Positions 18,837 through 63,246 are shown, counted from the stretch's first letter. The stretch is DNA of 64,000 nucleotides from Candidatus Omnitrophota bacterium (GCA_022709525.1 JAKLIQ010000002.1:262003-326002), one strand, 5' to 3'. Notes: generated by a model from the sequence alone, not told the origin. Translations and numbers: made by a program.

Positions 18837-19445
18837 CTAGAATTTTTCAAAAAGGATCAAATAACACGCCACCAGAACAAGGGTTACGGCGGAAAGACGG
18901 CTGATAAGAGAGTGGTTCTTTTCCGTCCATTGATCGAGCTTTTTGAGGAGAAAGAACGCCAGCGGGACAAACCAGAGCATCGCGCCGATCACAAACCCCC
19001 CGAGGAAAAGCTCCTTGAACCAAGGTTGGCGAGTCTCCGGAAAGCGGGCATGGAGAAAACCGATGATGGCGATCCACATTAAAAAAACAGCCGGGTTGGT
19101 GATCACGACCAGGAAACCGACCAGAAAATTCCGGGTCGGGTTCCGCTTGCTGACCTCTTCGTTCTTCGGGAGCGGTTTGCCGTGGGTCCAAAAAACGCGC
19201 GCCGCCAGGATCAAGAGTATCGAGATGCCGACCCATCGGATGATCCCCCACCATTCCGGATGCTCCAACAGCGGGCGGGTCCCTTTAAAACCGATCCAAA
19301 GAAAGATCATATCGGCCGTGACCGATCCGCATCCGACAAGAAAAGCCGCGATCTTTCCGCGCCGGAGCCCGCGATGGATCATAAGCAGGTCGATCTGCCA
19401 ACCGAAACAAGAAGCGAGAAAACCGGCCACCATACCCAACAACAT
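18837..19445 (-). CDS. LysE/RhtB-type small-molecule exporter (6-TM)
   Basis: About 200 aa with 6 TM segments and a RhtB-like FLVGFLVVITNPAVFLMW motif. Start placed at internal ATG 19445, which overlaps the pssA stop as TAATG. Confidence 0.5.
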   Translation of the reverse strand: MLLGMVAGFLASCFGWQIDLLMIHRGLRRGKIAAFLVGCGSVTADMIFLWIGFKGTRPLLEHPEWWGIIRWVGISILLILAARVFWTHGKPLPKNEEVSKRNPTRNFLVGFLVVITNPAVFLMWIAIIGFLHARFPETRQPWFKELFLGGFVIGAMLWFVPLAFFLLKKLDQWTEKNHSLISRLSAVTLVLVACYLILFEKF

Positions 19446-20194
19446 TACGCGCCTCCTTCTTGCGGCGGAGCGTCGTGATCCCCGTTCGGCAAGAACCGCT
19501 GCGAGGAGATGCAATAAAATGGCGAAAGCACGAGGAATGTCAGAAATACGGCCGCGATCGCGCTTTCGATATTAAGAAAGAAGAACATCGTCGCAAGAAC
19601 GACCACCTGGACAAAAAACAGCGTCCGCCAGGAACGGAATTTTATGGCGGAGATCTTAGGGTAAGGAATGTCGCTGATCATGAGAAATCCGAGAGCGGTC
19701 ATCAAGAATACGACGGTCACAAGAGAGAAAGACCGGTCGGTCCAGTGATTTTTATAGAGAGCCAGCATGGTCATCATAAGCGTCAAGGCCGCGGCGGGGG
19801 TCGGAAGCCCCTCAAAGCATCCGCCGTGAATGGGGTTGACGTTAAAACGCGCCAAACGGAAGATACCCGAGCAGAGATAGAACACCACGATCAGGAGGAA
19901 GACAAAAGAAACATTCAAAAAAAACACTTTCGAGACAAGCATGCAGGGCGCCACCACGAACGAAACGGCGTCGGCTAAGGAATCCAGTTCGCGCCCGAAT
20001 TGGGTCTCGTTGCCGAAGATCCGCGCGACGTGGCCGTCCAGGGAATCCAGGATCAAAGCAAGAAAAACCAGCCAGACCGCGTACTCATATTTTTCCTGGA
20101 CGCTCATCAGGATCGACATGAAGCCCGCGACGAGATTGAGCATGGTGATCATGTTCGGAAAAGCGGCAGTCGTGAAATAGAACCGGTTTTTCAT
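19445..20194 (-). CDS. pssA: CDP-diacylglycerol--serine O-phosphatidyltransferase (phosphatidylserine synthase, CDP-alcohol phosphatidyltransferase family)
   Basis: CDP-OH-P-transferase motif DSLDGHVARIFGNETQFGRELDSLADAVSF and multiple TM segments. 3-nt gap to psd. Confidence 0.85.
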   Translation of the reverse strand: MKNRFYFTTAAFPNMITMLNLVAGFMSILMSVQEKYEYAVWLVFLALILDSLDGHVARIFGNETQFGRELDSLADAVSFVVAPCMLVSKVFFLNVSFVFLLIVVFYLCSGIFRLARFNVNPIHGGCFEGLPTPAAALTLMMTMLALYKNHWTDRSFSLVTVVFLMTALGFLMISDIPYPKISAIKFRSWRTLFFVQVVVLATMFFFLNIESAIAAVFLTFLVLSPFYCISSQRFLPNGDHDAPPQEGGA

Positions 20195-20197
20195 CTT

Positions 20198-20845
20198 TCA
20201 GGCCTCATCGTTCCATTGGCCCAGGACCGTGATGCCGGCCGCAACATGCTGCTTGACCTTGATATCCGCCCGGAACATTTTCGCCGGAATAAAGATCTCG
20301 ACCCCGGACCCGTAGCAGATCATCCCGATCTTTTCGCCGCGGCCCGCGACCTGTCCGATCGTCACATCCGAATAAATGCGCCTCGCGATCGCGCCCGTCA
20401 TTTGGCGCACAAGAACGCGGCGCGCGTGGTTTTCGATCCCGACCCAATTGGATTCATTATGGTCAAAAGCTTCCTTCCGTAAGGCATTCAAAAATTTTCC
20501 TTTAACATAATGTTGGTATTTTACGATGCCGGCCAAAGGCGATCGCGTGACATGCACGTCAAAGATCGAAAGAAAAATGCGGATACGGACCGCCGGACCG
20601 CGGAGAAACCGGTCTTCAAAGACCTCATCGACCCCGAGGACTGTGCCGTCCGCGGGGGCCAACAGGCCTTGGGCTGCGGGCGGGTCGCGGCGCGGGTCGC
20701 GGAAGAAAGCTAAATGCGCGAAAAGAAGAAATCCTAGGGCCGGCAATCCGAATGGAACCGGCCAGACTCTCTCCAAAAGGATCAGAGCGCCGAGGAGGAG
20801 GACTCCCGGCCAAACGCGTTTATCGAAAGGGATCTTGGGTCTCAT
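20198..20845 (-). CDS. psd: phosphatidylserine decarboxylase (short, archaeal-type Psd family proenzyme)
   Basis: 215 aa PSD family with LGS-type self-cleavage-region context (MICYGSGVEIFIP). Its ATG overlaps the stop of the upstream radical-SAM gene as ATGA. Confidence 0.8.
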   Translation of the reverse strand: MRPKIPFDKRVWPGVLLLGALILLERVWPVPFGLPALGFLLFAHLAFFRDPRRDPPAAQGLLAPADGTVLGVDEVFEDRFLRGPAVRIRIFLSIFDVHVTRSPLAGIVKYQHYVKGKFLNALRKEAFDHNESNWVGIENHARRVLVRQMTGAIARRIYSDVTIGQVAGRGEKIGMICYGSGVEIFIPAKMFRADIKVKQHVAAGITVLGQWNDEA

Positions 20846-22461
20846 GGTGCGGCAATAACAGGGGTCTTTTCTTTGTTCTTCGGTTCAAGGTGCTCCGCCG
20901 AAGACCCGTTCGCGTCTTCAAAAGGCGGTTTTTTCGGATCTTGCCCTTCCGGAACCCCCTGAGTTTCGATGACGTATTGCCGAAAAGCGCGATGCGTCCC
21001 GATCCATCTGAAGAATTCCAGCCACTTCCCCATCGAGAACGGTCCGCCCTTGGCCACGCGCCAAAAGGTCCCGGCAAAAAACTTCATGCGCTCAAAATCC
21101 AGGGTCAGCAAATAATAAGCCAGCAATTTGAACAACAAAGAAATAAATTTAAAATCAAGCGACGCGCGCTTATGCTCGGGGTTGAGGTTCCTGAAACGGC
21201 TCAAAGCCGTTACCAAACGGTCGCCATAGGCATCATAACGATAGAGGCACCGGCTCAGCCAGTTATACCCTTGATGGATCTCCTGAAGGGTCATGTTTTT
21301 GGGGATAAAATTACAGTCGGAAGACCCATGCCCGTTCATTTCGGTCCATTCCAGATCCAGCATCCGCCCTTCCGCTTGAAGTCGTTTCATAAGAGGCGTA
21401 TTCGGAAGCGCCATCAGGGTCCCGCAGGTTGTGAACGGGATCCCGAGCTCCTGGAGGAAATCAAAGGTTTCCTTAAAAATACTCTTGTCGTCAGAGTCAA
21501 AACCCACGATCATCCCGGCTACAACGGTCAGGTGATAGGAGTGGATGCGCTTGATATCTTCCAGGACATTTTCCCGGGTGTTCTGCACCTTGCCGGATTC
21601 CAAAAGACTCGCCTTGCGGGGCGACTCGATCCCGATGAAAAGCGCGTAGAAATTGGCCGCCTGAAAAAGCTCCAGAAGGTCCGGATGATGCGCGACATTG
21701 ATGGTCAGCTCGCACGAGAATTCGATCGGATAACCGTTCTTTTTGGAATAATCCGCGAGCGCCTTGAGAAGTTCCCGGGCATAAGGGATATTGCCGATGA
21801 AATTCGCGTCACCAAAAACGATGTAGTGAGCGCCTTGTTTGACGCAGTGATCGACCTCGGCAAGGACTTGGGCGATCGTCTTGGTGCGCGGCACGCGGCC
21901 GTCCATGATGATAATGTCACAGAATTCGCAATTGTAGGGACAGCCGCGGCTTGTCTGAAGCGAGAACATATTGTAAAGATGTCCCCGGATGAGATCGTAG
22001 CGCGGCGCGGGACTTTGGCGGATATCCACTTTTCTTGGGGCCTTGTAGAGCTCGCGCGCCTTCCCAGCTTCAAAATCACGAAGGAATTCCGGCCAAATCT
22101 CTTCGGCTTCTCCGGCGATCCGGTGATCGCATTTACCCTCGAAGGATTCGGGAAAGAGACTGCAATAAGGGCCGCCGACCACCACTTTTTTGCCGCGCTT
22201 GCGGAATTCCGCGATGATCTCAAGCGCCCGGTGATATTGAACATTGAATGCGCTAACGGCAACGAGATCAGCGTCTGTTTCGAAATTGATCGCCTCCACA
22301 TTCTCATCGGCGATCTCGACGTTCCAGGAGGTGGGCGTGAGCGCGGCGACCGTGCAGATCCCCAGCGGGGTGGTGGAGAACTTCGTCCCCGTCAGGGATT
22401 GAAGTCCCTCGAACGACCAGATGGTCGGTTGAAATTTGGGATTAACAATGTAAACTTTCAA
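20842..22461 (-). CDS. class-B (B12-binding domain) radical SAM enzyme with C-terminal DUF4070
   Basis: N-terminal cobalamin-binding Rossmann-like domain (DLVAVSAFNVQYHRALEIIAEFRKRGKKVVVGG) and a radical-SAM cluster motif CPYNCEFC. Long C-terminal domain follows. Confidence 0.85.
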   Translation of the reverse strand: MKVYIVNPKFQPTIWSFEGLQSLTGTKFSTTPLGICTVAALTPTSWNVEIADENVEAINFETDADLVAVSAFNVQYHRALEIIAEFRKRGKKVVVGGPYCSLFPESFEGKCDHRIAGEAEEIWPEFLRDFEAGKARELYKAPRKVDIRQSPAPRYDLIRGHLYNMFSLQTSRGCPYNCEFCDIIIMDGRVPRTKTIAQVLAEVDHCVKQGAHYIVFGDANFIGNIPYARELLKALADYSKKNGYPIEFSCELTINVAHHPDLLELFQAANFYALFIGIESPRKASLLESGKVQNTRENVLEDIKRIHSYHLTVVAGMIVGFDSDDKSIFKETFDFLQELGIPFTTCGTLMALPNTPLMKRLQAEGRMLDLEWTEMNGHGSSDCNFIPKNMTLQEIHQGYNWLSRCLYRYDAYGDRLVTALSRFRNLNPEHKRASLDFKFISLLFKLLAYYLLTLDFERMKFFAGTFWRVAKGGPFSMGKWLEFFRWIGTHRAFRQYVIETQGVPEGQDPKKPPFEDANGSSAEHLEPKNKEKTPVIAAP

Positions 22462-22512
22462 GAAGGATCCGTTCTGTATTTTTTAAAAATCATGGTATCC
22501 ATGGGCGCACGT

Positions 22513-24603
22513 TTAATGTTTTCTCAAAAAGATCCCGGAGATCAGGATGGAAAGCAGGAACCGGACGAACAGGACCGATTCCTCGACCGTTGCAAAAAAA
22601 AGACGGATATAATTGATCCCCCAAATGTTCCCGCGTTTCCAGGCGCTCCCGACATTTTCCCAAAAATGCTGCAGAGGAGCGCGCGTAAAAGTCAGGCGGA
22701 GTGAAAAAATATTCCACTTGTCAAGCCAGAGCCGGAATCCGGAGGGGGTCCGGAACCGGTAGACGCCTTTTTTCTCAAGCGACGCGGCGGCCTTCCGGTA
22801 AAGATTTTGAAGTTCTGAAACGCGAAGGTCGCGCCATTCTTTGGCGCACTGGGTCAGACGAGCGATCTCGGCGATCACTTTTTGTTCCAGCGGCCCGCGG
22901 CGGCGCGTTGCGAGCCAGACCTCTTCAAGCTCCAGCGCCAGTTTCCACCGTCCCCTCATCGCTCGCAGGATGTCGGAACATCTTCGTTTGAAATAGGTCC
23001 AGCGATCCTCGATCGGATAACCCGAGCGACGCTCCAGGCGTCCTTTCAAGCGGAAAAACCCGCAGATCATCGGATGCCCGCCTTCCACGTCGATGGAATT
23101 CTTATACCACATGAAATTCGAAAAAATACCCCAGTAATTATCTCCCTTGAGGTCCCTTGCCAGGATCCGCCTCATATTTTCCGTGCTGTAAAAGGTCTGC
23201 CAGGCGGCTTCATAAGCGGCAAGCCATTCCCCGGGTTTCATTCGGGGATGGCGGTGAGTCTCATGGAATGTGTCGTAGTTATTAAGATCGGCGTCCAGCA
23301 GCATCCCTTTTTCTAAAGCATTTTTGTAATCCATGGAACCCGGGAGCGGCGTCATCATGAAAAATGACGCTTGCCCGGCGCCGAACGACATCAGTTTTTC
23401 AACATCCTGTCTGACCGACTCCGCGGTGTCCAGGGGAAATCCAATGATGTAGGCTAAGTGGCAAACGACATCCACTTCATGAAAGGAATCCACCAGTTTT
23501 TTAAAATTCTCGATATCGTTCTGGTTCTTCTTCGCCGCTTTGAGATTTTCCTGGTTCAAGCTTTCGATGCCGATAAAGACTTGGCGGCAGCCGGCTCGGG
23601 CGGCTTTTTCCACAAAATTAGGTACCGTGTGGGCCTGAGTGTCCAGCTGCATCATGAAATGGAACGGGATCCCCTCTTTTTCCTTCAATTCGATAAGCCG
23701 GTCCAGGATCGTTTCCCAGTTCTTGTGGCGGCAGAAATTATCATCGGTAAAAAAGTAATGCGAAATGTTGTGACGGCGATAATCCTCGCGGATCCTCTGG
23801 ATCAGGAGATCCACGTCGCGGAAGCGCATCTTACGGCCCTGAACATTGATCACGGTGCAGAAACTGCATCCGAAGGGACATCCGCGGCCGCAATCAAGCG
23901 TCCCGAAGTGTTCAAGCGCGTAATGCTTCTGGTGTTTGGGGTTGATCCTCGGGAACGGGGCCTTGGAAATATCCGGGATATCGTTCAGGAAATTATAAAC
24001 GGGGCGGAGGCGGCCTTGCATCGCGTCACGAAGCAATCGCTCCCAGTGACCGCCCTCGGCCTCGCCGGCCACAAGGATCACGCCGGCGTTCTTGAGCGTC
24101 ACAAGTTCCGGGGAAAGATCCGGCAAGGTCGCCATGATGCCGCTGACATGAAACCCTCCGATCAGGACATCGATCCCCGCTTTTCGAAATTTTATCGCGA
24201 TATCGGAGGCGCGCGGAAATTGATTGGACTGGACCCCGACCAGACAGATCACGGTCTTGGTTCCGGCTTGGCGATCCTTCCGGGCGATCTTCCGGTAAGG
24301 GATCTTTTGGACCGTATCATCGATGAGCGTGATATCCCATGCCAGGTCCTTCCCCAGGACCTCGCGCTCACGGACATCCTCACTAAGACCGTTCAGGCAG
24401 GAAAGCGTATTGCTTGGCAGAACGCCCTTCCAGTAACGGATCAAATAGCCCTCGTCATCGTACTTGGAGGGCTTGATCAGATAAAGGCAGAGGCGCTTGT
24501 ATTTGTGAGAACAAGTTCCGGCAGGCCCTTCGCCTTGAGCTTCAAAAGAGGCTCCCGAGGCGCGGCCCAATTCAGAGGTTATGGGATTTTCTCGAATTTG
24601 CAT
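22513..24603 (-). CDS. class-B (B12-binding domain) radical SAM enzyme, long form (~696 aa)
   Basis: B12-binding domain (TKTVICLVGVQSNQFPRASDIAIKFRKAGIDVLIGG), a radical-SAM motif CGRGCPFGCSFC, and a ~250-aa C-terminal extension. The first ~35 residues look non-conserved, so the true start may be internal or non-ATG. Confidence 0.85.
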   Translation of the reverse strand: MQIRENPITSELGRASGASFEAQGEGPAGTCSHKYKRLCLYLIKPSKYDDEGYLIRYWKGVLPSNTLSCLNGLSEDVREREVLGKDLAWDITLIDDTVQKIPYRKIARKDRQAGTKTVICLVGVQSNQFPRASDIAIKFRKAGIDVLIGGFHVSGIMATLPDLSPELVTLKNAGVILVAGEAEGGHWERLLRDAMQGRLRPVYNFLNDIPDISKAPFPRINPKHQKHYALEHFGTLDCGRGCPFGCSFCTVINVQGRKMRFRDVDLLIQRIREDYRRHNISHYFFTDDNFCRHKNWETILDRLIELKEKEGIPFHFMMQLDTQAHTVPNFVEKAARAGCRQVFIGIESLNQENLKAAKKNQNDIENFKKLVDSFHEVDVVCHLAYIIGFPLDTAESVRQDVEKLMSFGAGQASFFMMTPLPGSMDYKNALEKGMLLDADLNNYDTFHETHRHPRMKPGEWLAAYEAAWQTFYSTENMRRILARDLKGDNYWGIFSNFMWYKNSIDVEGGHPMICGFFRLKGRLERRSGYPIEDRWTYFKRRCSDILRAMRGRWKLALELEEVWLATRRRGPLEQKVIAEIARLTQCAKEWRDLRVSELQNLYRKAAASLEKKGVYRFRTPSGFRLWLDKWNIFSLRLTFTRAPLQHFWENVGSAWKRGNIWGINYIRLFFATVEESVLFVRFLLSILISGIFLRKH

Positions 24604-24610
24604 GGGGACG

Positions 24611-24732
24611 GATTATAACCCAATTCCCCACCAACTCCTAGAAATGGTTTCCACCGCACGCCGTACGTGGTAGGTGGTAGGCAGTAGGTCATTTCAATCA
24701 ACCCACCACATACGACTTACCACATACTGTTC
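24611..24732 (-). promoter_or_regulatory. intergenic region with short direct repeats and a -10-like box upstream of the long radical-SAM gene
   Basis: Minus-strand reading shows GTATGTGGT twice (5-nt spacer), CCTAC three times, and TTATAAT 8 nt before the ATG. Confidence 0.3.
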
Positions 24733-25254
24733 CTAAAATTCGACCCCGGGTTGGGCCGGAACACCGCGATCAAAAGGATGCTTCACGCATCTCATTTCGG
24801 TGACAAGATCGGCGGCTTTAAGAAGGGCCTTGGGAGCGCCGCGGCCTGTCAGGATCACATGCTTCGTTTTAGGTCTTCGCCGAAGCGTCCGGATCACGCC
24901 CGGGATGTTCAGGAATTTATATTTAAGGGCAATGTTGATCTCATCAAGGATCACGAGCGCGTACCGGGGATCGCGCAGCAGCTGAACGCATTTTTTCCAG
25001 GCATCCCGCGCGGCTTTGAGATTTTCTTTCCGCGAAGTTTGCCAGGTAAATCCGCCGCCGAAACTCCAAACCTTGAATTGAGTATGCGGCAACATGTGGC
25101 GGCTTGGCGCTTTAAAAAATTGCACCATCGCGACGCGTTTGCCGTGTTTGATCATACGGACGGCCGATCCTACGGCGGCGGTTGTTTTCCCCTTCCCATT
25201 ACCGGTAAAAACCAGGATCAATCCTTGTTCCCGCTTCGCTTGCCGTATTTTCAT
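24733..25254 (-). CDS. cobA: cob(I)yrinic acid a,c-diamide / cob(I)alamin adenosyltransferase (CobA/BtuR/CobO family)
   Basis: Near-colinear with E. coli BtuR: ILVFTGNGKGKTTAA...VQF.K...L...FTW...DE......L....VI.TGRG. 5-nt gap after the TonB-dependent receptor. Confidence 0.85.
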   Translation of the reverse strand: MKIRQAKREQGLILVFTGNGKGKTTAAVGSAVRMIKHGKRVAMVQFFKAPSRHMLPHTQFKVWSFGGGFTWQTSRKENLKAARDAWKKCVQLLRDPRYALVILDEINIALKYKFLNIPGVIRTLRRRPKTKHVILTGRGAPKALLKAADLVTEMRCVKHPFDRGVPAQPGVEF

Positions 25255-25259
25255 TTCTG

Positions 25260-27350
25260 TTAATACTCCAATGAAAGACCGGACACGAATCCGCGCCCTT
25301 GAGCCGGATAATATCCTACCTGATTTGTACCGGAACTGTAACCGGCATATTCGGAATATTTCATATCAAAAAGGTTCGTCAATGACGCCCACGCCGTTAC
25401 CCAACGCCAGTGGTAACGGGCCTTAAGGTCCACGGTCGTATAGGCCTTAACTTTGGCGGCGTTATTGGTCGGATCGCTAATGGCGAAACGGCTGCTTAAG
25501 TGATTCAATTCCGCGGAAACCGTGAACCCCTTGACCGGCTCGGCGACGAATCCTGTCGCGTATTTGAATTCCGGCACGAAAGGAATGATCTTATTGGCGT
25601 AATCCCCGCCTTTAAAGTAGGGCTTTTGGACCGTCAGGTTGAAAAACGGTTTGATGTTGAACCAGCGTTTTTCAAAAAGCTTCAAGGAGGATTCCATTTC
25701 AAAGCCGTAGCGGCGCGTCGGAGAAATATAGTTGGAGTTCGCGAAGGTAAGCGGGTCGTAATAAAGCTCATCTTTGATGTCCGCTAAGAAAACATTCATG
25801 GCGACTTGAAGGGGTTTGTAGGTGTTATCACGAATGCCTAACTCATAATTCATTTCCTGTTGCTGCTTGAGTCCCGAATTCAGACCACCCGCCACCGGGC
25901 CCGTCCAGGAGATATAGGTATTCTGGTAGAATTCTTCGGTGGTCGGCGTTCGGAAAGAACGCGAAATATCAAAATAAGCGATAGAACGTTCGTTGTAACG
26001 GAACCCGATCCCGAAATCGAACGCCGGATCGCGCATGCTCGCCGTGTCGCGATTGGTCAGAGCGGCGGTCTGATTGAACCAGTAATTGGTCCATGCCCCT
26101 CGGAACCCGAGATTCAGAAGAAGTTTGTCCCAGAAAGTCAGGGTTTCGAGGATATAAACGCCGAGCGATTTTTTGGTGATATGAACTTCATCCTGGCCGG
26201 GCGCGCGATTGCCGCTCCGGATGCTGTCTTGGGCCGAAAAAAGATCGATCCCGGTCGTCATCTTGCTTGCCAGCCAATCCGTCAGGCGATACGTCCACTG
26301 GATCTTGGGCTGGAATTCATAAGTATCGATATGATGGATCGTTTCCCAATCGCCCCACGTGGATACAGAACTCCCTTTGCTTTGCCGGCGCCGGAATGAA
26401 TTGAACGCGGAAAGTTCAAAACCGTTCTTTCCAAGTTCAAAGCTCCACTTAGGGTCCGCGGTAAAAAAAGTCTCCTCGGTCCAGCCGCGGTCCTGCGAAT
26501 GCGTGCTGCCCCTGCGACCGATCGATTCAATGTCGTTCATAAAAAGCGCGCCGGGCATACCGTAGCGGTCTTTGTGAAAACCCGCTGTGAGATCCAGTCC
26601 CGCGCCATAAAAGGGCCCGACCCCGAGCTTGCCGAACCAGTCATTGGCCCAATAATCCGTATTGGTGCGCCAGCCGCCGTCCTGCGTATTTTCAAAATGA
26701 AAAGAGCCGCGGGCCCAATCGGTCGCCGCGGACACGGTCCCGCCGTTACGTTTATATTTATGGAGACCGATCTCGGTCTCGGCCTTTGCGTGGATCCCCG
26801 GTTCGATTTTTTTTGTGACGATATTGATCACGCCGCCCGCAGCGTTGTCGCCATATAGCACGGCAGAAGGACCGCGAATGATCTCGATGCGGTCAATGAT
26901 CGAGAGCGGAATCGCCGCCCAATCGGTGCCGGAAAGATCGATCTGATTGGTCCGGCGCCCGTCCACAAGAACAAGCACGTTCGTCCGGCCCGATTCCCCA
27001 AACCCGCGAATGTCGACCGACATGCCTTTGGGATTATCCTCCGTTTTGGTAACGACGATCCCCGCTTTAGATTTCAAAAGGTCGGGCACATAAAGCGCGG
27101 TGGAATTTTGGATCTCCTCCTGATCGATCACGGAGATGCTGCGGGTAATGTAAGAGCTTGAGTCGTCGGAACGGGTCACTTCCAGATGGATCGTATCCTG
27201 CGGGGTTTTTCCTTCTTCGACTTTCTTGGAAGTGTCCTGCGAAGATCCGTTCTCGGCGACCGGTTCCGGTGTTTCTATTTTTGGTTTTTGGGCCCAAACG
27301 GACGGGCTTAGAAAAAAACAAAGGATGCAAACTAAGAAAATCTTTTTCAT
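25260..27350 (-). CDS. TonB-dependent outer-membrane receptor (BtuB-like corrinoid receptor candidate)
   Basis: Signal peptide, a plug domain (IVVTKTEDNPKGMSVDIRGFG..NVLVLVDGRR) and a C-terminal beta-barrel. It is preceded by a cobalamin riboswitch. Confidence 0.8.
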   Translation of the reverse strand: MKKIFLVCILCFFLSPSVWAQKPKIETPEPVAENGSSQDTSKKVEEGKTPQDTIHLEVTRSDDSSSYITRSISVIDQEEIQNSTALYVPDLLKSKAGIVVTKTEDNPKGMSVDIRGFGESGRTNVLVLVDGRRTNQIDLSGTDWAAIPLSIIDRIEIIRGPSAVLYGDNAAGGVINIVTKKIEPGIHAKAETEIGLHKYKRNGGTVSAATDWARGSFHFENTQDGGWRTNTDYWANDWFGKLGVGPFYGAGLDLTAGFHKDRYGMPGALFMNDIESIGRRGSTHSQDRGWTEETFFTADPKWSFELGKNGFELSAFNSFRRRQSKGSSVSTWGDWETIHHIDTYEFQPKIQWTYRLTDWLASKMTTGIDLFSAQDSIRSGNRAPGQDEVHITKKSLGVYILETLTFWDKLLLNLGFRGAWTNYWFNQTAALTNRDTASMRDPAFDFGIGFRYNERSIAYFDISRSFRTPTTEEFYQNTYISWTGPVAGGLNSGLKQQQEMNYELGIRDNTYKPLQVAMNVFLADIKDELYYDPLTFANSNYISPTRRYGFEMESSLKLFEKRWFNIKPFFNLTVQKPYFKGGDYANKIIPFVPEFKYATGFVAEPVKGFTVSAELNHLSSRFAISDPTNNAAKVKAYTTVDLKARYHWRWVTAWASLTNLFDMKYSEYAGYSSGTNQVGYYPAQGRGFVSGLSLEY

Positions 27351-27397
27351 TTTTTACCTTTCACGCGAAGGAAAACCCGGCCGTTGTCTCCTGGCTC

Positions 27398-27520
27398 TTG
27401 GCAACCTACTCTCCGGCCTTCCCGCCTTTTTCAGGCAGTGGCCTCAAGGATTTCGTTCCAAGTTACAGTTGCGCGGCAGCAACGGATTTGCACCGTTTTC
27501 CGAAAACCGTCCGGATCCGC
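27398..27520 (-). promoter_or_regulatory. cobalamin (B12) riboswitch upstream of the TonB-dependent receptor
   Basis: Minus-strand RNA reads GGUGCAAAUCCGUUGCUGCCGCGCAACUGUAA...GAGGCCACUGCCUGAAAAAGGCGGGAAGGCCGGAG. This matches the conserved GGUGC, AAUCC, GCCACUG (B12 box) and GGGAAGGCCGG elements. Confidence 0.75.
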
Positions 27521-27521
27521 T

Positions 27522-28274
27522 TCATGTTCCTTTCTTGAAATAGGTTGAATGTGACGCTACCGAAAAAAATTCCGCGATCCTTTCCGGCCGTAAAAATTCC
27601 CCGGCAGGACCTGTCGCGGCCATTTTCCCCGAGCGGAGCATCACAACACGCCCGAGAAAAGGCTTCAGCCATTCCCATTGATGCGAGATCACGGCCACGG
27701 TCAGCTTTTCGCGCTGCTGTAGCCGCGTCAAAAGTTCAAAAAGGCCGATCTGCTGACGGATATCAAGATTGGAGACCGGCTCGTCTAAAAGAAGGATCTT
27801 AGCCTGCTGGCAGATCGCGCGGGCGATCTCAACGCGCCGCCTTTCGCCGCCGCTTAATTGAAGGATCGAGCGTTTGGCGAAACGCAGGGTGTCGGTCGCT
27901 TCCATCGCCCATGCGGCGCGCTCAAGATCCTCTTTGCGGTTCCAAAAACCGTGGGGCGCGTTCGGGAACCTTCCCATCAGGACCAGCTCCTCGACCGTGA
28001 ACGGAAAAATATAGGCGGCGTCCTGCTCGAGATAAGCCGCTTTGCGCGCGATCTCCAAGGCATTCATTCTTTCAACCGGGTTTTCAAAAAGAAAAGTTTT
28101 TCCCGAACGCGGCCGAAGCCAGCCAAGCGCGAGTTTAAAAAGTGTGGTTTTTCCGGCGCCGTTTTCGCCCAAAAAAAGCGTCATGCTCCCTTCTTCGAGC
28201 GAACATGAGAATGAATCGATATGAAAAGCGCTCCCGTATTGAAAGCTGACATCGCGCCACTCGACAGCGTTCAT
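27522..28274 (-). CDS. btuD: ABC transporter ATP-binding protein (cobalamin/iron-siderophore type)
   Basis: Walker A GENGAGKTT, ABC signature LSGGERRRVEIA and Walker B ILLLDEP. Start at internal ATG 28274, which overlaps the btuC stop as ATGA. Confidence 0.85.
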   Translation of the reverse strand: MNAVEWRDVSFQYGSAFHIDSFSCSLEEGSMTLFLGENGAGKTTLFKLALGWLRPRSGKTFLFENPVERMNALEIARKAAYLEQDAAYIFPFTVEELVLMGRFPNAPHGFWNRKEDLERAAWAMEATDTLRFAKRSILQLSGGERRRVEIARAICQQAKILLLDEPVSNLDIRQQIGLFELLTRLQQREKLTVAVISHQWEWLKPFLGRVVMLRSGKMAATGPAGEFLRPERIAEFFSVASHSTYFKKGT

Positions 28275-29251
28275 GAGATCACCCGTTTTCCTTCGCGCCT
28301 TTTGAGGATGACGATAAAGAACGGAACGCCTAAAAGGGCTGTCACGATCCCGACGGGGATCTCCGAAGGATAGAAAAGAGAACGCGCGAGCATATCGGCT
28401 CCGGCCAAAAGAACACCGCCGGCCCAAGCGCTCACGGGCAGGGAGCGGCGAAGGTCCGAACCGACAAAAAGCCGGGCGACGTGCGGGCTCATCAGCCCCA
28501 CAAAGCTGATCATGCCGCTTAAAGAGACCGCCGCGCCTGTCAGGATCGCGGCGGCGATAAAAAGAAGGATTTGGGTTTTTTCGACGCTTACGCCGAGCGA
28601 ACGGGCGGCGGATTCTCCCAGCGAAAGCAGGTTCAGTTTCGGCGCTTGCCTCATGAAGAAAAACCCCACGATACCGAGCGTGATAAATAAAAAAAGGATC
28701 TGAGCATAACCTGCCATGGACAAATTCCCTAAAAGCCAGTTAAAAGCTGCCGCGGTATCGTCGGAACGGAAAAGCGACTGGCAAAAAAGCATCAGCGACA
28801 CTAAAAAGGAATTGATCATGACGCCGAGAAGAAGCAGCGTGTACATGGAAAGCGCGCCTTTGCGCATGGAGAGCAGGAAAACAAGAAAAAGCACCGCGAG
28901 GGCCCCCAGCCCGGCAAATACGGGGAAAAATGAGAAGGAGAACCCAAACACCGCGCAGATCCATACTCCCGCGCCGGCGCCGGCGGAAACTCCGATCAAA
29001 TGCGGGTCGGCCAGAGGATTCCTGAAAAGGGACTGAAACACGGCGCCCGTCACCGCAAGCGACATCCCGACCCCCCAGGCGAGCAGGAAACGCGGTAATC
29101 TTAAATAAAAAAAGAGGAACCGGTCCTGTTCGCTCGCAAGGTCAAGAAGCCCGCGAGGACCGACAAGATTTAAAAAGAGCAAGCCGGCGGGGATAAACAT
29201 CAAGATGAGAAAACTCCGCAGCGCCCGTTTAGACATGGATCTTCTCCGCAT
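28271..29251 (-). CDS. btuC: FecCD-family ABC permease (BtuC-like)
   Basis: About 9-10 TM segments and FecCD-family similarity. Confidence 0.85.
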   Translation of the reverse strand: MRRRSMSKRALRSFLILMFIPAGLLFLNLVGPRGLLDLASEQDRFLFFYLRLPRFLLAWGVGMSLAVTGAVFQSLFRNPLADPHLIGVSAGAGAGVWICAVFGFSFSFFPVFAGLGALAVLFLVFLLSMRKGALSMYTLLLLGVMINSFLVSLMLFCQSLFRSDDTAAAFNWLLGNLSMAGYAQILFLFITLGIVGFFFMRQAPKLNLLSLGESAARSLGVSVEKTQILLFIAAAILTGAAVSLSGMISFVGLMSPHVARLFVGSDLRRSLPVSAWAGGVLLAGADMLARSLFYPSEIPVGIVTALLGVPFFIVILKRREGKRVIS

Positions 29252-30131
29252 AAGGATTTTCAGGACCCGGCGTGTCTTCAGCCGCTAATGTGACCGTTTC
29301 AAGCCACATCGGCGTTCTGGGGCCCGGTACCGGAAGCGCTTCTTTTTTAAAAAGATAAACACGCCCTTCGCGTACAGCTCTTAGAGCGCGGTATTTCCCC
29401 CAGAATGCGCGGGCTTCTTTCATTTCGTCGGCCCAGGATTTATCCCGCTCAAACGCGCTCGCGTCAAGGATCACATCCGGGTCCTCCCTGAAAACCGCTT
29501 CCATGGTCCATTTGGGATACCGTGTCCGGCTGGATCCTGCGATATTTTGAGCACCGATCGTCCGGAGCGCGTCATCTTCCATGGTTCCCTTGCCCGCGAC
29601 GATCAAAGGGAAACGCCATGCGACATAAAGCGCTTTTATTTTTGGATCCTGAAGGGCGCGATCACGGTATTTTTCTATTTCCCCGGAGATTTTCTGGCGC
29701 GCGGTTTTCGCTTCCCGCTCATGCCCCGAAACTTCCCCCAAAGCTGAAAAACTTTCAAGAAGATCTTCCAAGGAATAAAACGAAACGGAGATAACGGGTT
29801 TGCGGAATTCGACGAACTTTTCATAAATGATCCGCGTTCCCGAATTCGGGGTAACGGTCACAAGATCGGGGCTGCGCGCCAGGATCGCTTCAAGGGAATG
29901 ACGGTCGAATCCGCCGATCCGCGGGATCTTCCGGGCTTCGGGCGGCCAGACGCAGAAATCGGTCACGCCCGCGATCTGAGGGCCCGCGCCGATCGCGAAA
30001 AGGATCTCGGTCGTGGAAGGAGAAAGAGAAACGATTCTTGCCGGACGTTGATCCGCGGATGTTTCCGCAAAACCGCCGGCCGGAAGAAGAAAACAAATCA
30101 AAAATAAAGAACAAAGACCTTTCGGAAACAA
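29229..30131 (-). CDS. btuF: periplasmic cobalamin-binding protein (BtuF-like ABC substrate-binding protein)
   Basis: Signal peptide and a BtuF-like fold (RIVSLSPSTTEILFAIGAG..GVTDFC). The first codon appears to be TTG at 30131-30129, located right after the leader hairpin. Confidence 0.8.
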   Translation of the reverse strand: MFPKGLCSLFLICFLLPAGGFAETSADQRPARIVSLSPSTTEILFAIGAGPQIAGVTDFCVWPPEARKIPRIGGFDRHSLEAILARSPDLVTVTPNSGTRIIYEKFVEFRKPVISVSFYSLEDLLESFSALGEVSGHEREAKTARQKISGEIEKYRDRALQDPKIKALYVAWRFPLIVAGKGTMEDDALRTIGAQNIAGSSRTRYPKWTMEAVFREDPDVILDASAFERDKSWADEMKEARAFWGKYRALRAVREGRVYLFKKEALPVPGPRTPMWLETVTLAAEDTPGPENPYAEKIHV

Positions 30132-30133
30132 AA

Positions 30134-30167
30134 AGCCCTTTCCGCCTCAAAGGGGCAAGAAAGGGCT
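30134..30167 (-). promoter_or_regulatory. riboswitch expression platform: SD-sequestering hairpin / terminator abutting the btuF start
   Basis: Minus-strand RNA AGCCCUUUC-uugccccuuugaggcg-GAAAGGGCU is followed by UUUUUG-UUG(start). The 3' arm contains the SD GAAAGGG. Confidence 0.5.
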
Positions 30168-30264
30168 AGCCTGTCTTGACCTCTGCTCGGAGGCATTTTA
30201 AAAATCTCAAATCTGAAATTTGAAATTTATGGATAATGGGTTGATATTCTGACTAGGCAAGTAC

Positions 30265-30385
30265 AAACCTACTCGCGGCCTTCCCGCCCTTTAATCTTGC
30301 TCGGGGCAGTGGCGATTCGCTTTCGTCCTTACCGACAGCGGCGGCACCGTGGAGTCCCCGCAAAACTCAGCGGGTCTCTCTTCCC
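30265..30385 (-). promoter_or_regulatory. cobalamin (B12) riboswitch upstream of btuF-btuC-btuD
   Basis: Minus-strand RNA reads GGUGCCGCCGCUGUCGGUAAGGACGAAAGCGAAUCGCCACUGCCCCGAGCAAGAUUAAAGGGCGGGAAGGCCGCGAG. It carries the GGUGC, AAUCGCCACUG (B12 box) and GGGAAGGCCGC elements. Confidence 0.75.
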
Positions 30386-30469
30386 AAATGCTCCCATTAT
30401 CATACTTTCTTCAAAGAACGATAATCTTGACGTTCAGTATAAAGAAAAAACTCATCAGCGCAACGTTTT

Positions 30470-63060: not shown

Positions 63061-63246
63061 GTCCGTTTCCCTCTTCATGCCGGGGCCCGCAAAAATGAAA
63101 AGGGCCGCCGTCTGACTTCTGCGTCAGATGGCGGCCCGACCACCCTCAATACCTCTAACGAATCTTTCCGTTAGACCCTTTCCCAAAAATGAATATCGCG
63201 TTCATGCTAGCTCTCTTATTTTAAAAATGCAACTTCCATTTTGATA

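What the first reader, a model, noticed from the sequence alone, without database searches (positions are those of the whole stretch)
27398..27520. Unannotated cobalamin riboswitch in the 150-nt gap between btuD and the TonB-dependent receptor
Read on the minus strand, the gap contains GGUGCAAAUCCG...CCGCGCAACUGUAA...GCCACUG...GGGAAGGCCGG. These are the hallmark B12-box and flanking conserved blocks. The element identifies the downstream receptor as a corrinoid receptor. It also places cobA and, if read-through occurs, the rSAM-psd-pssA genes under cobalamin control.
Basis: seen in the sequence. Interest (0 to 1): 0.55.

Follow-up and report, generated by a model that had tools for sequence, protein, structure and literature searches.

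The report
Cobalamin riboswitch before corrinoid receptor gene
The gap between the btuD-like and TonB-dependent receptor genes holds a genuine vitamin-B12 (cobalamin) riboswitch that most likely blocks translation of the receptor when B12 is plentiful; it is an ordinary member of a well-known RNA family.

Summary
Rfam's cobalamin model (RF00174) matches window 27501-27386 on the minus strand at 80.3 bits (gathering score 31.5, E 3.6e-18). The quoted motifs are all there.

The full element spans 27524-27348. It has an outer helix, the four-way junction core, a long P6 extension, no P2 arm, and a weak hairpin whose 3' arm is the receptor's ribosome-binding site. The hairpin loop (CGCGUG) complements the unusual L5 loop (CCGCG). 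One relative shows a compensatory change there, and L5 and loop motifs co-vary across 64 Omnitrophota riboswitch-like instances. There is no terminator.

Best reading: an adenosylcobalamin-sensing OFF switch that acts on translation through a kissing loop, as in E. coli btuB.

A second, divergent cobalamin riboswitch with a terminator (30412-30222) heads the upstream btuFCD genes. Two riboswitches in one btu locus are already known in Bacteroides thetaiotaomicron.

Control of cobA is plausible but indirect. Control of the radical-SAM, psd and pssA genes is not supported. This is a new member of a known kind, of low to moderate interest.

The parts
27386..27501 (-). Cobalamin aptamer core: G27501-C27386 closing pair, P4/L4, P5/L5, P6 with its long extension, and the B12 box
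   Evidence: RF00174 at 80.3 bits, E 3.6e-18, model positions 47-167. Helices show covariation in 26 Omnitrophota sequences: 95.5% of cells paired, 23 pairs with double-sided changes, 0 of 500 shuffles reach this.
27511..27518 (-). 5' arm of the outer helix (GGAUCCGG). Two to four further inner pairs in 27505-27509 have an ambiguous register. Only about 3-6 nt separate this helix from the core, so there is no P2 arm.
   Evidence: Recovered in unconstrained and core-constrained folds. Invariant in three orthologues except G27518 to A in L087, which changes G.U to A-U. A rival upstream partner (CGGCCG near 27580) is not conserved.
27373..27380 (-). 3' arm of the outer helix (CCGGGUUU), directly after the atypical B12-box tail GAC-AACGG
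27481..27497 (-). P4 (AACGG/CCGUU) with the canonical L4 loop UGCAAAU
   Evidence: Rfam alignment. P4 pairs co-vary across Omnitrophota (helix 3).
27472..27476 (-). L5 loop CCGCG (family consensus UCCCG), the proposed aptamer side of the kissing loop
   Evidence: C27476 to U in L087 is matched by G27362 to A.
27397..27462 (-). P6 and its long extension, with the conserved GCCACUG (27442-27436) and GGGAAGGC (27423-27416). This is the Cbl-I-type peripheral element.
   Evidence: Full match to the model's P6 extension. Pair 27460-27399 changes from U-A to C-G in L087. Class criteria come from PMC7367189.
27386..27396 (-). B12 box AGCCAGGAGAC, followed by AACGGCC instead of the usual CUGCC
27357..27371 (-). 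P13-like hairpin: CCUU (27371-27368), loop CGCGUGA (27367-27361), and AAGG (27360-27357), which is the ribosome-binding site
   Evidence: Read from the sequence. Hairpin energy is -2.4 kcal/mol in the window and -4.1 in L087. The loop complements L5 with a duplex of about -5 kcal/mol. The motif CGCG.[GA] has a chance expectation of 0.03 per sequence.
27348..27350 (-). AUG of the TonB-dependent receptor, 6 nt after the RBS; the product starts with a signal-peptide-like MKKIFLVCILCFFLSPSVWA
   Evidence: the gene call is identical in 11 public contigs.
27520..27524 (-). UGAAG (includes the btuD stop UGA, 27524-27522). It can pair with CUUCG (27370-27366) as a candidate anti-sequestor that leaves the RBS open.
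   Evidence: Core-constrained folds prefer this state by 5.9 kcal/mol over the P13 state. Both strands are identical in all three orthologues. Inference only.
30222..30412 (-). Upstream riboswitch RS#1, a divergent cobalamin riboswitch (L5 UGCCG at 30346-30342, long P4, B12 box AGUCAGAAUAUC). It heads the btuF/btuC/ATPase genes.
   Evidence: RF00174 at 39.9 bits, full length. The same type leads the receptor gene in relatives.
30136..30193 (-). RS#1 expression platform: hairpin CCUC-CGAGCA-GAGG (30193-30180), whose loop complements L5 UGCCG, then the terminator-like CCCUUUGAGGCGGAAAGGG followed by CUUUUUGUUU (30154-30136 plus tail)
27522..30131 (-). btuF-like (30131-29229), btuC-like (29251-28271) and ABC ATPase (28274-27522) genes
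   Evidence: Pfam and NCBIfam; gene calls.
24733..27350 (-). TonB-dependent receptor (27350-25260) and the cobA adenosyltransferase (25254-24733), 5 nt apart

Best explanation
This is a functional cobalamin (coenzyme-B12) riboswitch of the RF00174 family. It is transcribed on the minus strand as the leader of the TonB-dependent receptor gene.

Shown: the aptamer has the conserved four-way-junction core, a canonical L4, a long Cbl-I-type P6 extension, and an outer closing helix. It has no P2 arm.

Inferred: when adenosylcobalamin binds, loop L5 (CCGCG, 27476-27472) base-pairs with the loop (CGCG-U-G, 27367-27362) of a weak hairpin 15 nt downstream of the B12 box. This kissing loop stabilises the hairpin. 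The hairpin's 3' arm is the receptor's ribosome-binding site (AAGG, 27360-27357), so translation initiation is blocked. Without ligand, the 5' arm of the hairpin pairs with UGAAG at the end of btuD by extending the outer helix, which leaves the RBS open.

The element is the second of two cobalamin riboswitches in one transport cluster. The first (30412-30222) carries a terminator and gates transcription into btuFCD and probably everything downstream. The second adds translational control of the outer-membrane receptor. cobA then converts imported corrinoid into the adenosylated ligand, which closes a negative feedback loop (inferred).
For: Family identity: 80.3 bits against a gathering score of 31.5. 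The same hit occurs in orthologues with 98% and 88% identical receptors (77.5 and 74.3 bits). Core helices co-vary in 26 Omnitrophota sequences.

Selection: changes in L087 fall in loops or are compensatory. P6 pair 27460-27399 changes from U-A to C-G, kissing-loop pair 27476-27362 from C-G to U-A, and outer-helix pair 27518-27373 from G.U to A-U.

Kissing loop: across 64 riboswitch-like instances, L5 UCCCG goes with loop CG.GGA in 20 of 36 (3.2 expected) and never with CG.GCA. L5 UGCCG goes with CG.GCA in 12 of 17 (1.3 expected). RS#2's L5 goes with CGCG.[GA] in 2 of 2 (0.03 expected each).

Translational mode: the RBS lies inside the hairpin. No terminator-like site lies between 27386 and 27350, whereas canonical relatives have a strong stem plus U-run about 100 nt after the box. 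The hairpin alone is weak (-2.4 kcal/mol). The open state is favoured by 5.9 kcal/mol and the loop-loop duplex is worth about -5 kcal/mol, so the switch is balanced.

Published mechanism: in E. coli btuB and env8, the L5-L13 kissing loop stabilises P13 and the RBS hairpin (PMC10327014; PMC9600662).

Ligand: the long P7-P11 extension creates the adenosyl pocket and the P2 arm plays no major role in it (PMC7367189).

Context: btuFCD-like genes lie upstream and a cobA equivalog downstream.
Against: There are no experimental data. The RS#2 lineage has only three known members, which are 86-95% identical in the element, so the RS#2-specific covariation rests on single events.

The three-pair helix next to the core (Rfam positions 45-47/167-169) is reduced to one solid pair, and the B12-box tail is atypical. 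That is why the Rfam alignment stops at positions 47 and 167.

The whole-region fold is not more stable than shuffles (z = 0.39). This is common for tertiary-structure-rich aptamers, but it gives no support.

The anti-sequestor is only a nearest-neighbour prediction, and its conservation is confounded by the stop codon.

Whether the element is co-transcribed with btuD or has its own promoter is unknown. No sigma-70-like site was found, but Omnitrophota promoters are uncharacterised.

Ligand selectivity is inferred from architecture alone, and the published classes have exceptions.
Confidence: 0.7

Rival explanations
1. The riboswitch is genuine but acts mainly at the RNA level, not by simple RBS occlusion. 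Ligand binding would trigger Rho-dependent termination or nuclease attack in the early receptor ORF. That would lower the RNA for both the receptor and cobA.
For: The element sits inside a gene cluster with no obvious promoter of its own, and cobA is only 5 nt downstream of the receptor gene. If receptor translation is blocked, secondary polarity is plausible on general knowledge of translational riboswitches in E. coli.
Against: No intrinsic terminator lies in the leader. The platform has exactly the RBS-in-P13 design of known translational cobalamin riboswitches. Rho usage in Omnitrophota was not examined. This rival extends the main model more than it replaces it.
Confidence: 0.15
2. Translation-coupled switch. 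Ribosomes finishing btuD, or re-initiating at the AUG that overlaps its stop (AUGA, 27525-27522) and translating a 20-codon upstream ORF through P1-P5, would unfold the outer helix and aptamer. Receptor expression would then depend on btuD translation as well as on B12.
For: The btuD stop lies 3 nt from the outer helix and inside the predicted anti-sequestor. An ORF MKRIRTVFGKRCKSVAAAQL* starts at the AUGA overlap and is preceded by AAGGAA. It is kept in L090. Interplay between a uORF and a B12 riboswitch has been described in M. tuberculosis; I saw only the title and abstract of PMC11260477.
Against: In L087 the same frame reads AUG AAG UAG, a stop at codon 3, and the SD-like AAGGAA is absent. 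So the uORF is not conserved even in the closest lineage. Any intercistronic element lies close to a stop codon.
Confidence: 0.07
3. The element is a decaying, non-functional remnant of a riboswitch, left over after btuFCD was placed in front of the receptor gene.
For: The P2 arm is absent, the helix next to the core is weakened, the B12-box tail is atypical, and the Rfam match is only partial in length. An upstream riboswitch already exists that could do the job.
Against: The score is very high at 80.3 bits. All family-conserved blocks are intact. Changes in the 88% relative are compensatory or lie in loops, while the flanking genes are only 81% identical. L5 and its partner loop match each other although both depart from the consensus.
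Confidence: 0.03
4. The element is an activating (ON) corrinoid riboswitch, like the A. halodurans cobT element.
For: Activating corrinoid riboswitches exist and also use an L5-L13 kissing loop (PMC10327014).
Against: Here the hairpin stabilised by the kissing loop contains the RBS, so ligand binding should close it. Uptake genes are normally repressed by B12.
Confidence: 0.03

Closest known systems
E. coli btuB adenosylcobalamin riboswitch (RF00174; translational, L5-L13 kissing loop)
   Same: Same Rfam family. It also sits directly upstream of a TonB-dependent corrinoid receptor gene. It has a long P6 extension, and regulation works through a kissing loop that stabilises P13 and the RBS hairpin (PMC10327014). 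No terminator is involved.
   Different: RS#2 has no P2 arm. Its L5 is CCGCG instead of UCCCG, with a matching non-consensus partner loop that probably has one bulged U. Its B12-box tail is AACGGCC instead of CUGCC. It lies 3 nt after the stop of an upstream gene and not in a free-standing 5' UTR.
Bacteroides thetaiotaomicron btu operon 1 (two B12 riboswitches in one locus)
   Same: Two cobalamin riboswitches lie in one corrinoid-uptake locus. The second sits immediately before btuB and represses its translation (PMC13616437).
   Different: In B. thetaiotaomicron each riboswitch has its own promoter and the upstream genes are btuK/btuH. Here the upstream genes are btuFCD-like, no second promoter is evident, and the two riboswitches are of different subtypes with different platforms (terminator versus RBS hairpin).
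Cbl-I class as defined structurally (T. tengcongensis 4GMA, S. thermophilum)
   Same: Conserved P3-P6 core, T-loop-type L4 sequence, long P6 extension with the conserved GCCACUG and GGGAAGGC blocks, and an L5 kissing-loop partner.
   Different: [quoted passage not shown] RS#2 has only 3-6 unpaired or bulged nucleotides there. In this respect it is the mirror image of the B. subtilis yvrC hybrid, which has a P2 arm and a short P6 extension.
Canonical Omnitrophota receptor-leader cobalamin riboswitches (e.g. L043, L044, L041, L048)
   Same: Same phylum, same downstream gene family, same core; they score 40-60 bits against the RS#2 model.
   Different: They have the consensus L5 UCCCG, the canonical GAC-CUGCC tail, a P13 loop CG-N-GGA, and a strong terminator with a U-run. 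They are therefore transcriptional, whereas RS#2 is compact and translational.

Membership tests
Rfam RF00174 Cobalamin riboswitch | Covariance-model score at or above the curated gathering score (31.5 bits) | tested here: met
   80.3 bits, E 3.6e-18, on the minus strand. Orthologues score 77.5 and 74.3 bits.
Rfam RF00174 Cobalamin riboswitch | B12 box and the conserved L4, P5/P6 and P6-extension blocks | tested here: met
   AGCCAGGAGAC at 27396-27386, GGUGCAAAUCC at 27494-27484, GCAACUGUAA at 27472-27463, GCCACUG at 27442-27436, and GGGAAGGC at 27423-27416. The box's 3' tail is atypical (AACGGCC).
Rfam RF00174 Cobalamin riboswitch | Outer closing helices (model positions 9-21/170-182) and the three-pair helix (45-47/167-169) | tested here: inconclusive
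   These are not part of the Rfam alignment, which covers positions 47-167 only. A local outer helix, 27518-27511 with 27380-27373, is predicted and conserved. The three-pair helix has one solid pair, and the other two vary between orthologues.
Rfam RF00174 Cobalamin riboswitch | Base-paired helices maintained by covariation | tested here: met
   In 26 Omnitrophota sequences, 95.5% of cells are paired, 23 of 33 pairs show double-sided changes, 0 of 500 shuffles reach this, and slid controls give 33-50% paired. The alignment was fitted to the model. Within the RS#2 trio there is one compensatory pair in P6.
Rfam RF00174 Cobalamin riboswitch | Location in the sense-strand leader of a B12 transport or metabolism gene | tested here: met
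   The aptamer core ends 35 nt before the AUG of a TonB-dependent receptor. btuFCD-like genes lie upstream and cobA lies downstream.
Rfam RF00174 Cobalamin riboswitch | Direct, specific binding of a corrinoid with a structural change | not testable with these tools
   Needs in-line probing, ITC or SHAPE with AdoCbl, MeCbl and HyCbl.
Cbl-I structural class (AdoCbl-selective) | Long P6 extension (P7-P11) that folds back on the core | tested here: met
   Positions 27462-27397 match the model's P6 extension along its full length, including its conserved internal-loop blocks. Criterion from PMC7367189.
Cbl-I structural class (AdoCbl-selective) | Loop-stem-loop P2 module between P1 and P3 | tested here: not met
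   Only GUUUUC (27507-27502) lies between the outer helix and G27501. No alternative upstream partner is conserved. For this reason I do not file RS#2 as a strict Cbl-I member, only as Cbl-I-like in the adenosyl-pocket element.
Kissing-loop translational cobalamin riboswitches (btuB/env8 type) | L5 complementary to the loop of a downstream hairpin (L13) | tested here: met
   L5 CCGCG pairs with loop CGCG-U-G. C27476-G27362 becomes U-A in L087. L5 types and loop motifs co-vary across 64 instances.
Kissing-loop translational cobalamin riboswitches (btuB/env8 type) | The P13 or linked hairpin sequesters the RBS, and no intrinsic terminator is present | tested here: met
   AAGG (27360-27357) forms the 3' arm of the hairpin, 6 nt before the AUG. 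No terminator-like site lies in 27386-27350.
BtuB (TonB-dependent vitamin B12 receptor) for the downstream gene | Score above the equivalog cutoff of TIGR01779 or NF007926 | tested here: not met
   103.4 bits against a cutoff of 599.7, and 77.9 against 836. Only the plug region matches. Heme and siderophore models score similarly, and PDB hits are plug-only. Corrinoid specificity therefore rests on context.

The most novel reading that the evidence does not exclude
RS#2 could be an intercistronic riboswitch whose decision is coupled to translation of the upstream gene. The btuD stop codon is part of the helix that keeps the receptor's RBS open, and it lies 3 nt from the aptamer's closing helix. 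In the window's own lineage an AUGA overlap also opens a 20-codon ORF through the aptamer. Ribosome traffic on btuD would then reset or bias the switch. Together with the terminator-type RS#1, this would set the ratio of inner-membrane to outer-membrane transporter as a function of both B12 level and translation.
Probability: 0.08. Interest if true: 0.55.

Novelty: new member of a known kind. Interest (0 to 1): 0.25.

Why it matters
The element gives a functional label to an otherwise unassignable TonB-dependent receptor. It also points to corrinoid scavenging, by import plus adenosylation, in an uncultured Omnitrophota lineage from anaerobic-digester-type metagenomes.

It adds a compact natural example in which the whole sensor and translational platform fit in about 175 nt, without a P2 arm and with a non-consensus but matched L5/L13 pair. 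That may be useful for kissing-loop engineering and for studying how far cobalamin aptamers can be trimmed.

The side finding may matter more for annotation. A divergent riboswitch subtype (RS#1) that leads many Omnitrophota btu loci often falls below Rfam's gathering score, so B12 regulons in this phylum are probably under-called.

None of this changes how cobalamin riboswitches are understood.

Tried and rejected
1. Whole-region thermodynamic signal. The 231-nt fold is not more stable than shuffles (z = 0.39), so it says nothing either way.

2. Imposing the Rfam pairs gives +2.3 kcal/mol. The model contains non-canonical and tertiary pairs, so nearest-neighbour energy cannot judge the core.

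3. Searching for more RS#2-lineage members. The metagenome scan with GCAACTGTAACNNGGAACGAAANCC returned only the L087 contig and one unrelated high-GC riboswitch with a terminator, L091. Relatives with 59-78% identical receptors carry the other subtype (RS#1), not RS#2. The origin of RS#2 remains unknown.

4. An alternative long-range P1 using the palindromic CGGCCG near 27580, which would have made a P2 arm out of the end of btuD. It is not conserved (TGTCCCG in L087) and is not chosen in a 320-nt constrained fold.

5. An intrinsic terminator in the RS#2 leader. None was found. The GGGUUUUCCUU run follows only the long-range outer helix, not a compact hairpin.

6. An internal sigma-70-type promoter in the end of btuD. 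None was found at 9 of 12 matches, but Omnitrophota promoters are uncharacterised, so this is inconclusive.

7. An upstream ORF through the aptamer. It is present in the window and L090 but stops at codon 3 in L087, so I rejected it as a conserved feature.

8. Assigning the receptor to BtuB by sequence or by solved structures. Only plug-domain similarity was found.

9. A kissing-loop register of five contiguous pairs using C27471. This is disfavoured because C27471 closes P5 and because L087 would lose a pair. The register of four pairs, a bulged U and one further pair is the one supported by the compensatory change.

Full report
**1. The observation**

- GGUGCAAAUCCG at 27494-27483
- CCGCGCAACUGUAA at 27476-27463
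- GCCACUG at 27442-27436
- GGGAAGGCCGG at 27423-27413

A scan of the whole 64-kb window against Rfam 15 gives RF00174 (Cobalamin riboswitch aptamer) at 27501-27386 (-). The score is 80.3 bits against a gathering score of 31.5, with E 3.6e-18. A permissive local search gives the same hit and nothing else credible.

Three details need correcting:
- The quoted blocks are L4, L5/P6 and P6-extension motifs.
- The gap from the btuD stop (27524-27522) to the receptor AUG (27350) is 171 nt, not 150.
- The functional unit is longer than stated, about 27524-27348.

**2. Surroundings**

On the minus strand the order is:

| Feature | Coordinates |
|---|---|
| MFS transporter | 31807-30470 |
| Second RF00174 hit, RS#1 (39.9 bits, full length) | 30412-30222 |
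| btuF-like binding protein | 30131-29229 |
| btuC-like permease | 29251-28271 |
| ABC ATPase | 28274-27522 |
| The element in question, RS#2 | about 27524-27348 |
| TonB-dependent receptor | 27350-25260 |
| cobA adenosyltransferase (equivalog: 197 bits, cutoff 168) | 25254-24733 |
| Radical-SAM protein, 696 aa | 24603-22513 |
| B12-binding radical-SAM protein with DUF4070 | 22461-20842 |
| psd | 20845-20198 |
| pssA | 20194-19445 |

The receptor reaches no equivalog cutoff. BtuB, heme and siderophore models all match only its plug domain.

The same cluster occurs on 11 public metagenome or MAG contigs, including GCA_035454205.1. The nearest named relatives of the receptor are Candidatus Omnitrophota MAGs. 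The phylum assignment is therefore an inference from homologues.

**3. Anatomy of RS#2**

The Rfam alignment covers model positions 47-167 only. That span holds the closing G27501-C27386 pair, P4 with the canonical L4 (27497-27481), P5/L5 (27478-27470), P6 with the complete long extension (27462-27397), and the B12 box.

The outer part of the model is not aligned because the box is followed by AACGGCC instead of the usual CUGCC. Of the three pairs next to the core, only one is solid.

An outer helix does exist. GGAUCCGG (27518-27511) pairs with CCGGGUUU (27380-27373), and two to four inner pairs have an ambiguous register. The helix appears in unconstrained and core-constrained folds. It is invariant in the orthologues except for a G.U to A-U change. 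Only 3-6 nucleotides separate it from the core, so there is no P2 arm. A possible long-range partner inside btuD is not conserved and is not chosen in longer folds.

By the published structural criteria, Cbl-I has a P2 module plus a long P6 extension, and Cbl-II has neither (PMC7367189). RS#2 is therefore Cbl-I-like in the extension that builds the adenosyl pocket, but it lacks the P2 module. The same paper states that the P2 element plays no major role in the pocket of Cbl-I structures. That is the basis for predicting adenosylcobalamin as the ligand, and it is an inference.

**4. Expression platform**

After the outer helix comes UUUUCCUU-CGCGUGA-AAGGUAAAAAAUG. CCUU (27371-27368) pairs with AAGG (27360-27357), which is the Shine-Dalgarno sequence, 6 nt before the AUG. 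The hairpin is weak on its own: -2.4 kcal/mol here and -4.1 in L087, where the SD is AAGGAG.

Its loop complements L5 as follows: G27472-C27367, C27473-G27366, G27474-C27365, C27475-G27364, then a bulged U27363, then C27476-G27362.

No terminator-like site lies between the box and the AUG.

With the aptamer imposed, the nearest-neighbour model prefers a state in which CUUCG (27370-27366) pairs with UGAAG (27524-27520, including the btuD stop). This extends the outer helix and leaves the RBS single-stranded. That state is 5.9 kcal/mol more stable than the P13 state, and the L5-loop duplex is worth about -5 kcal/mol. This is the balance expected for a switch that needs a ligand-dependent tertiary contact to close.

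Published work on E. coli btuB and env8 shows exactly this logic: the L5-L13 kissing loop stabilises P13 and thereby the RBS hairpin. The L5 consensus is UCCCG, and bulged kissing loops are known (PMC10327014; PMC9600662).

**5. Comparative evidence**

Two close relatives share the btuFCD | RS#2 | receptor order and the same partial-length Rfam hit:
- L090: receptor 98% identical, 77.5 bits
- L087: receptor 88% identical, 74.3 bits

Between the window and L087 the element is 86.5% identical, against 81-82% for the flanking genes. The differences are structured:
- P6 pair 27460-27399: U-A to C-G
- Kissing-loop pair 27476-27362: C-G to U-A
- Outer-helix pair 27518-27373: G.U to A-U
- One P6-extension pair is lost (27455-27411, C-G to C.A)

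A metagenome pattern scan found no further members of this lineage.

To widen the test I built a covariance model from the trio and scanned 86 sources. Most distant Omnitrophota receptor loci carry a canonical cobalamin riboswitch just upstream of the receptor gene, scoring 40-60 bits. On the 26-sequence alignment the core helices are 95.5% paired, with 23 pairs changed on both sides. None of 500 shuffles reach this, and slid controls give 33-50%. The caveat is that the alignment was fitted to the model.

A regex survey found 64 distinct riboswitch-like instances. It shows that L5 and the first downstream hairpin loop co-vary:

| L5 type | n | Matching loop motif found | Expected by shuffling | Other type's motif |
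|---|---|---|---|---|
| UCCCG | 36 | CG.GGA in 20 | 3.2 | CG.GCA in 0 |
| UGCCG | 17 | CG.GCA in 12 | 1.3 | CG.GGA in 1 |
| CCGCG / UCGCG (RS#2) | 2 | CGCG.[GA] in 2 | 0.03 each | neither motif |

In the canonical leaders this hairpin is followed by a strong stem and U-run about 100 nt after the box. Those leaders are therefore transcriptional, whereas RS#2 goes directly into the RBS.

**6. The second riboswitch and the history of the locus**

RS#1 (30412-30222) has a long P4 in place of the canonical L4, L5 UGCCG, and B12 box AGUCAGAAUAUC. Its hairpin CCUC-CGAGCA-GAGG (30193-30180) has a loop that fits its L5. A terminator-like stem with a U-run follows at 30154-30136.

In relatives with 59-78% identical receptors, this RS#1 type leads the receptor gene itself. 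In L088, tonB-btuFCD-cobA lie downstream of the receptor. In the window's lineage, btuFCD sits between RS#1 and the receptor, and the receptor has a different riboswitch. Where RS#2 came from is unknown.

Two B12 riboswitches in one btu locus, with the second directly before btuB and acting on translation, are described for Bacteroides thetaiotaomicron operon 1 (PMC13616437). The layout therefore has precedent.

**7. Regulatory reach**

cobA starts 5 nt after the receptor stop, and a GGAG lies inside the end of the receptor gene. Co-transcription and coupling are likely. Because RS#2 is translational, however, its effect on cobA is indirect. RS#1 is the more likely common gate.

Between cobA and the first radical-SAM gene lies a 129-nt gap. 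It holds a long stable hairpin (z -3.0). L087 has a hairpin of different sequence at the same place (z -2.5). A block follows that is almost identical in both and contains TATAAT just before the start codon. This argues for separate control of rSAM-psd-pssA. Repressing a B12-binding enzyme when B12 is abundant would also be odd (my inference).

**8. Alternatives considered**

- RNA-level polarity, as an extension of the main model.
- Translation coupling or a upstream ORF. The 20-codon ORF from the AUGA overlap exists in the window and L090 but stops at codon 3 in L087.
- A decayed relic. This is contradicted by the score and by the pattern of substitutions.
- An activating switch. This is contradicted by the RBS lying inside the hairpin that the kissing loop stabilises.

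**9. Verdict**

This is a genuine cobalamin riboswitch. It is most probably an adenosylcobalamin-responsive translational OFF switch of the btuB/env8 kissing-loop type. It is compact, lacks a P2 arm, has a non-consensus but matched L5/L13 pair, and serves as the second riboswitch of a corrinoid-uptake cluster in an Omnitrophota genome.

It is a new member of a known kind. I put confidence in family identity at about 0.97 and in the stated mechanism at about 0.7. Interest is low to moderate.

Noticed in passing
window 30222-30412 (-) and platform to 30136; also L007, L009, L010, L011, L014, L017, L088, L089 upstream of the receptor gene: A divergent cobalamin-riboswitch subtype (long P4 instead of GGUGCAAAUCC, L5 UGCCG, B12 box AGUCAGAAUAUC, P13 loop CG-N-GCA, then a terminator) leads btu genes in 17 distinct Omnitrophota loci. 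Rfam's gathering threshold missed it in 8 of them, so B12 regulons in this phylum are probably under-annotated.
   Followed up: partly
window 27463-27525 (-): An AUG overlaps the btuD stop (AUGA) and opens a 20-codon ORF (MKRIRTVFGKRCKSVAAAQL*) that runs through the aptamer's 5' half and ends in the conserved CUGUAA. It is kept in L090 but stops at codon 3 in L087.
   Followed up: yes
window 24604-24732 (-), between cobA and the 696-aa radical-SAM gene: A long imperfect hairpin (z -3.0, no U tail) built from GUAUGUGGU-like repeats. A roughly 60-nt block follows (GGAAACCATTTCTAGGAGTTGGTGGGGAATTGGGTTATAATCCGTCCCCATG) that is nearly identical in L087, although the flanking genes are about 81% identical. 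It may be a promoter or leader element for the radical-SAM genes.
   Followed up: partly
window 19445-24603 (-): Two radical-SAM genes, one with a B12-binding domain and DUF4070, are followed by psd and pssA with overlapping or abutting ends. The best partial NCBIfam hits, all below cutoff, include a lipid-biosynthesis B12-binding/radical-SAM family (TIGR04072) and HpnJ. This suggests a B12-dependent lipid-modification cluster next to the B12 uptake genes.
   Followed up: no
window 63126-63178 (-): Rfam hit to nhaA-I RNA (RF03057) at 48.9 bits against a gathering score of 37, full length.
   Followed up: no
L088 1-10232 and L089: In relatives with 78% identical receptors the order is MFS, glgB, RS#1-type leader, receptor, tonB, btuF, btuC, btuD, cobA. 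The window's lineage has therefore rearranged the cluster (btuFCD moved ahead of the receptor, tonB lost from the cluster) and acquired a different riboswitch in front of the receptor.
   Followed up: partly
L088 4100-4160: The annotated N-terminal extension of the L088 receptor contains tandem GTACGG(G/A)-like repeats. The real start codon is probably further downstream.
   Followed up: no
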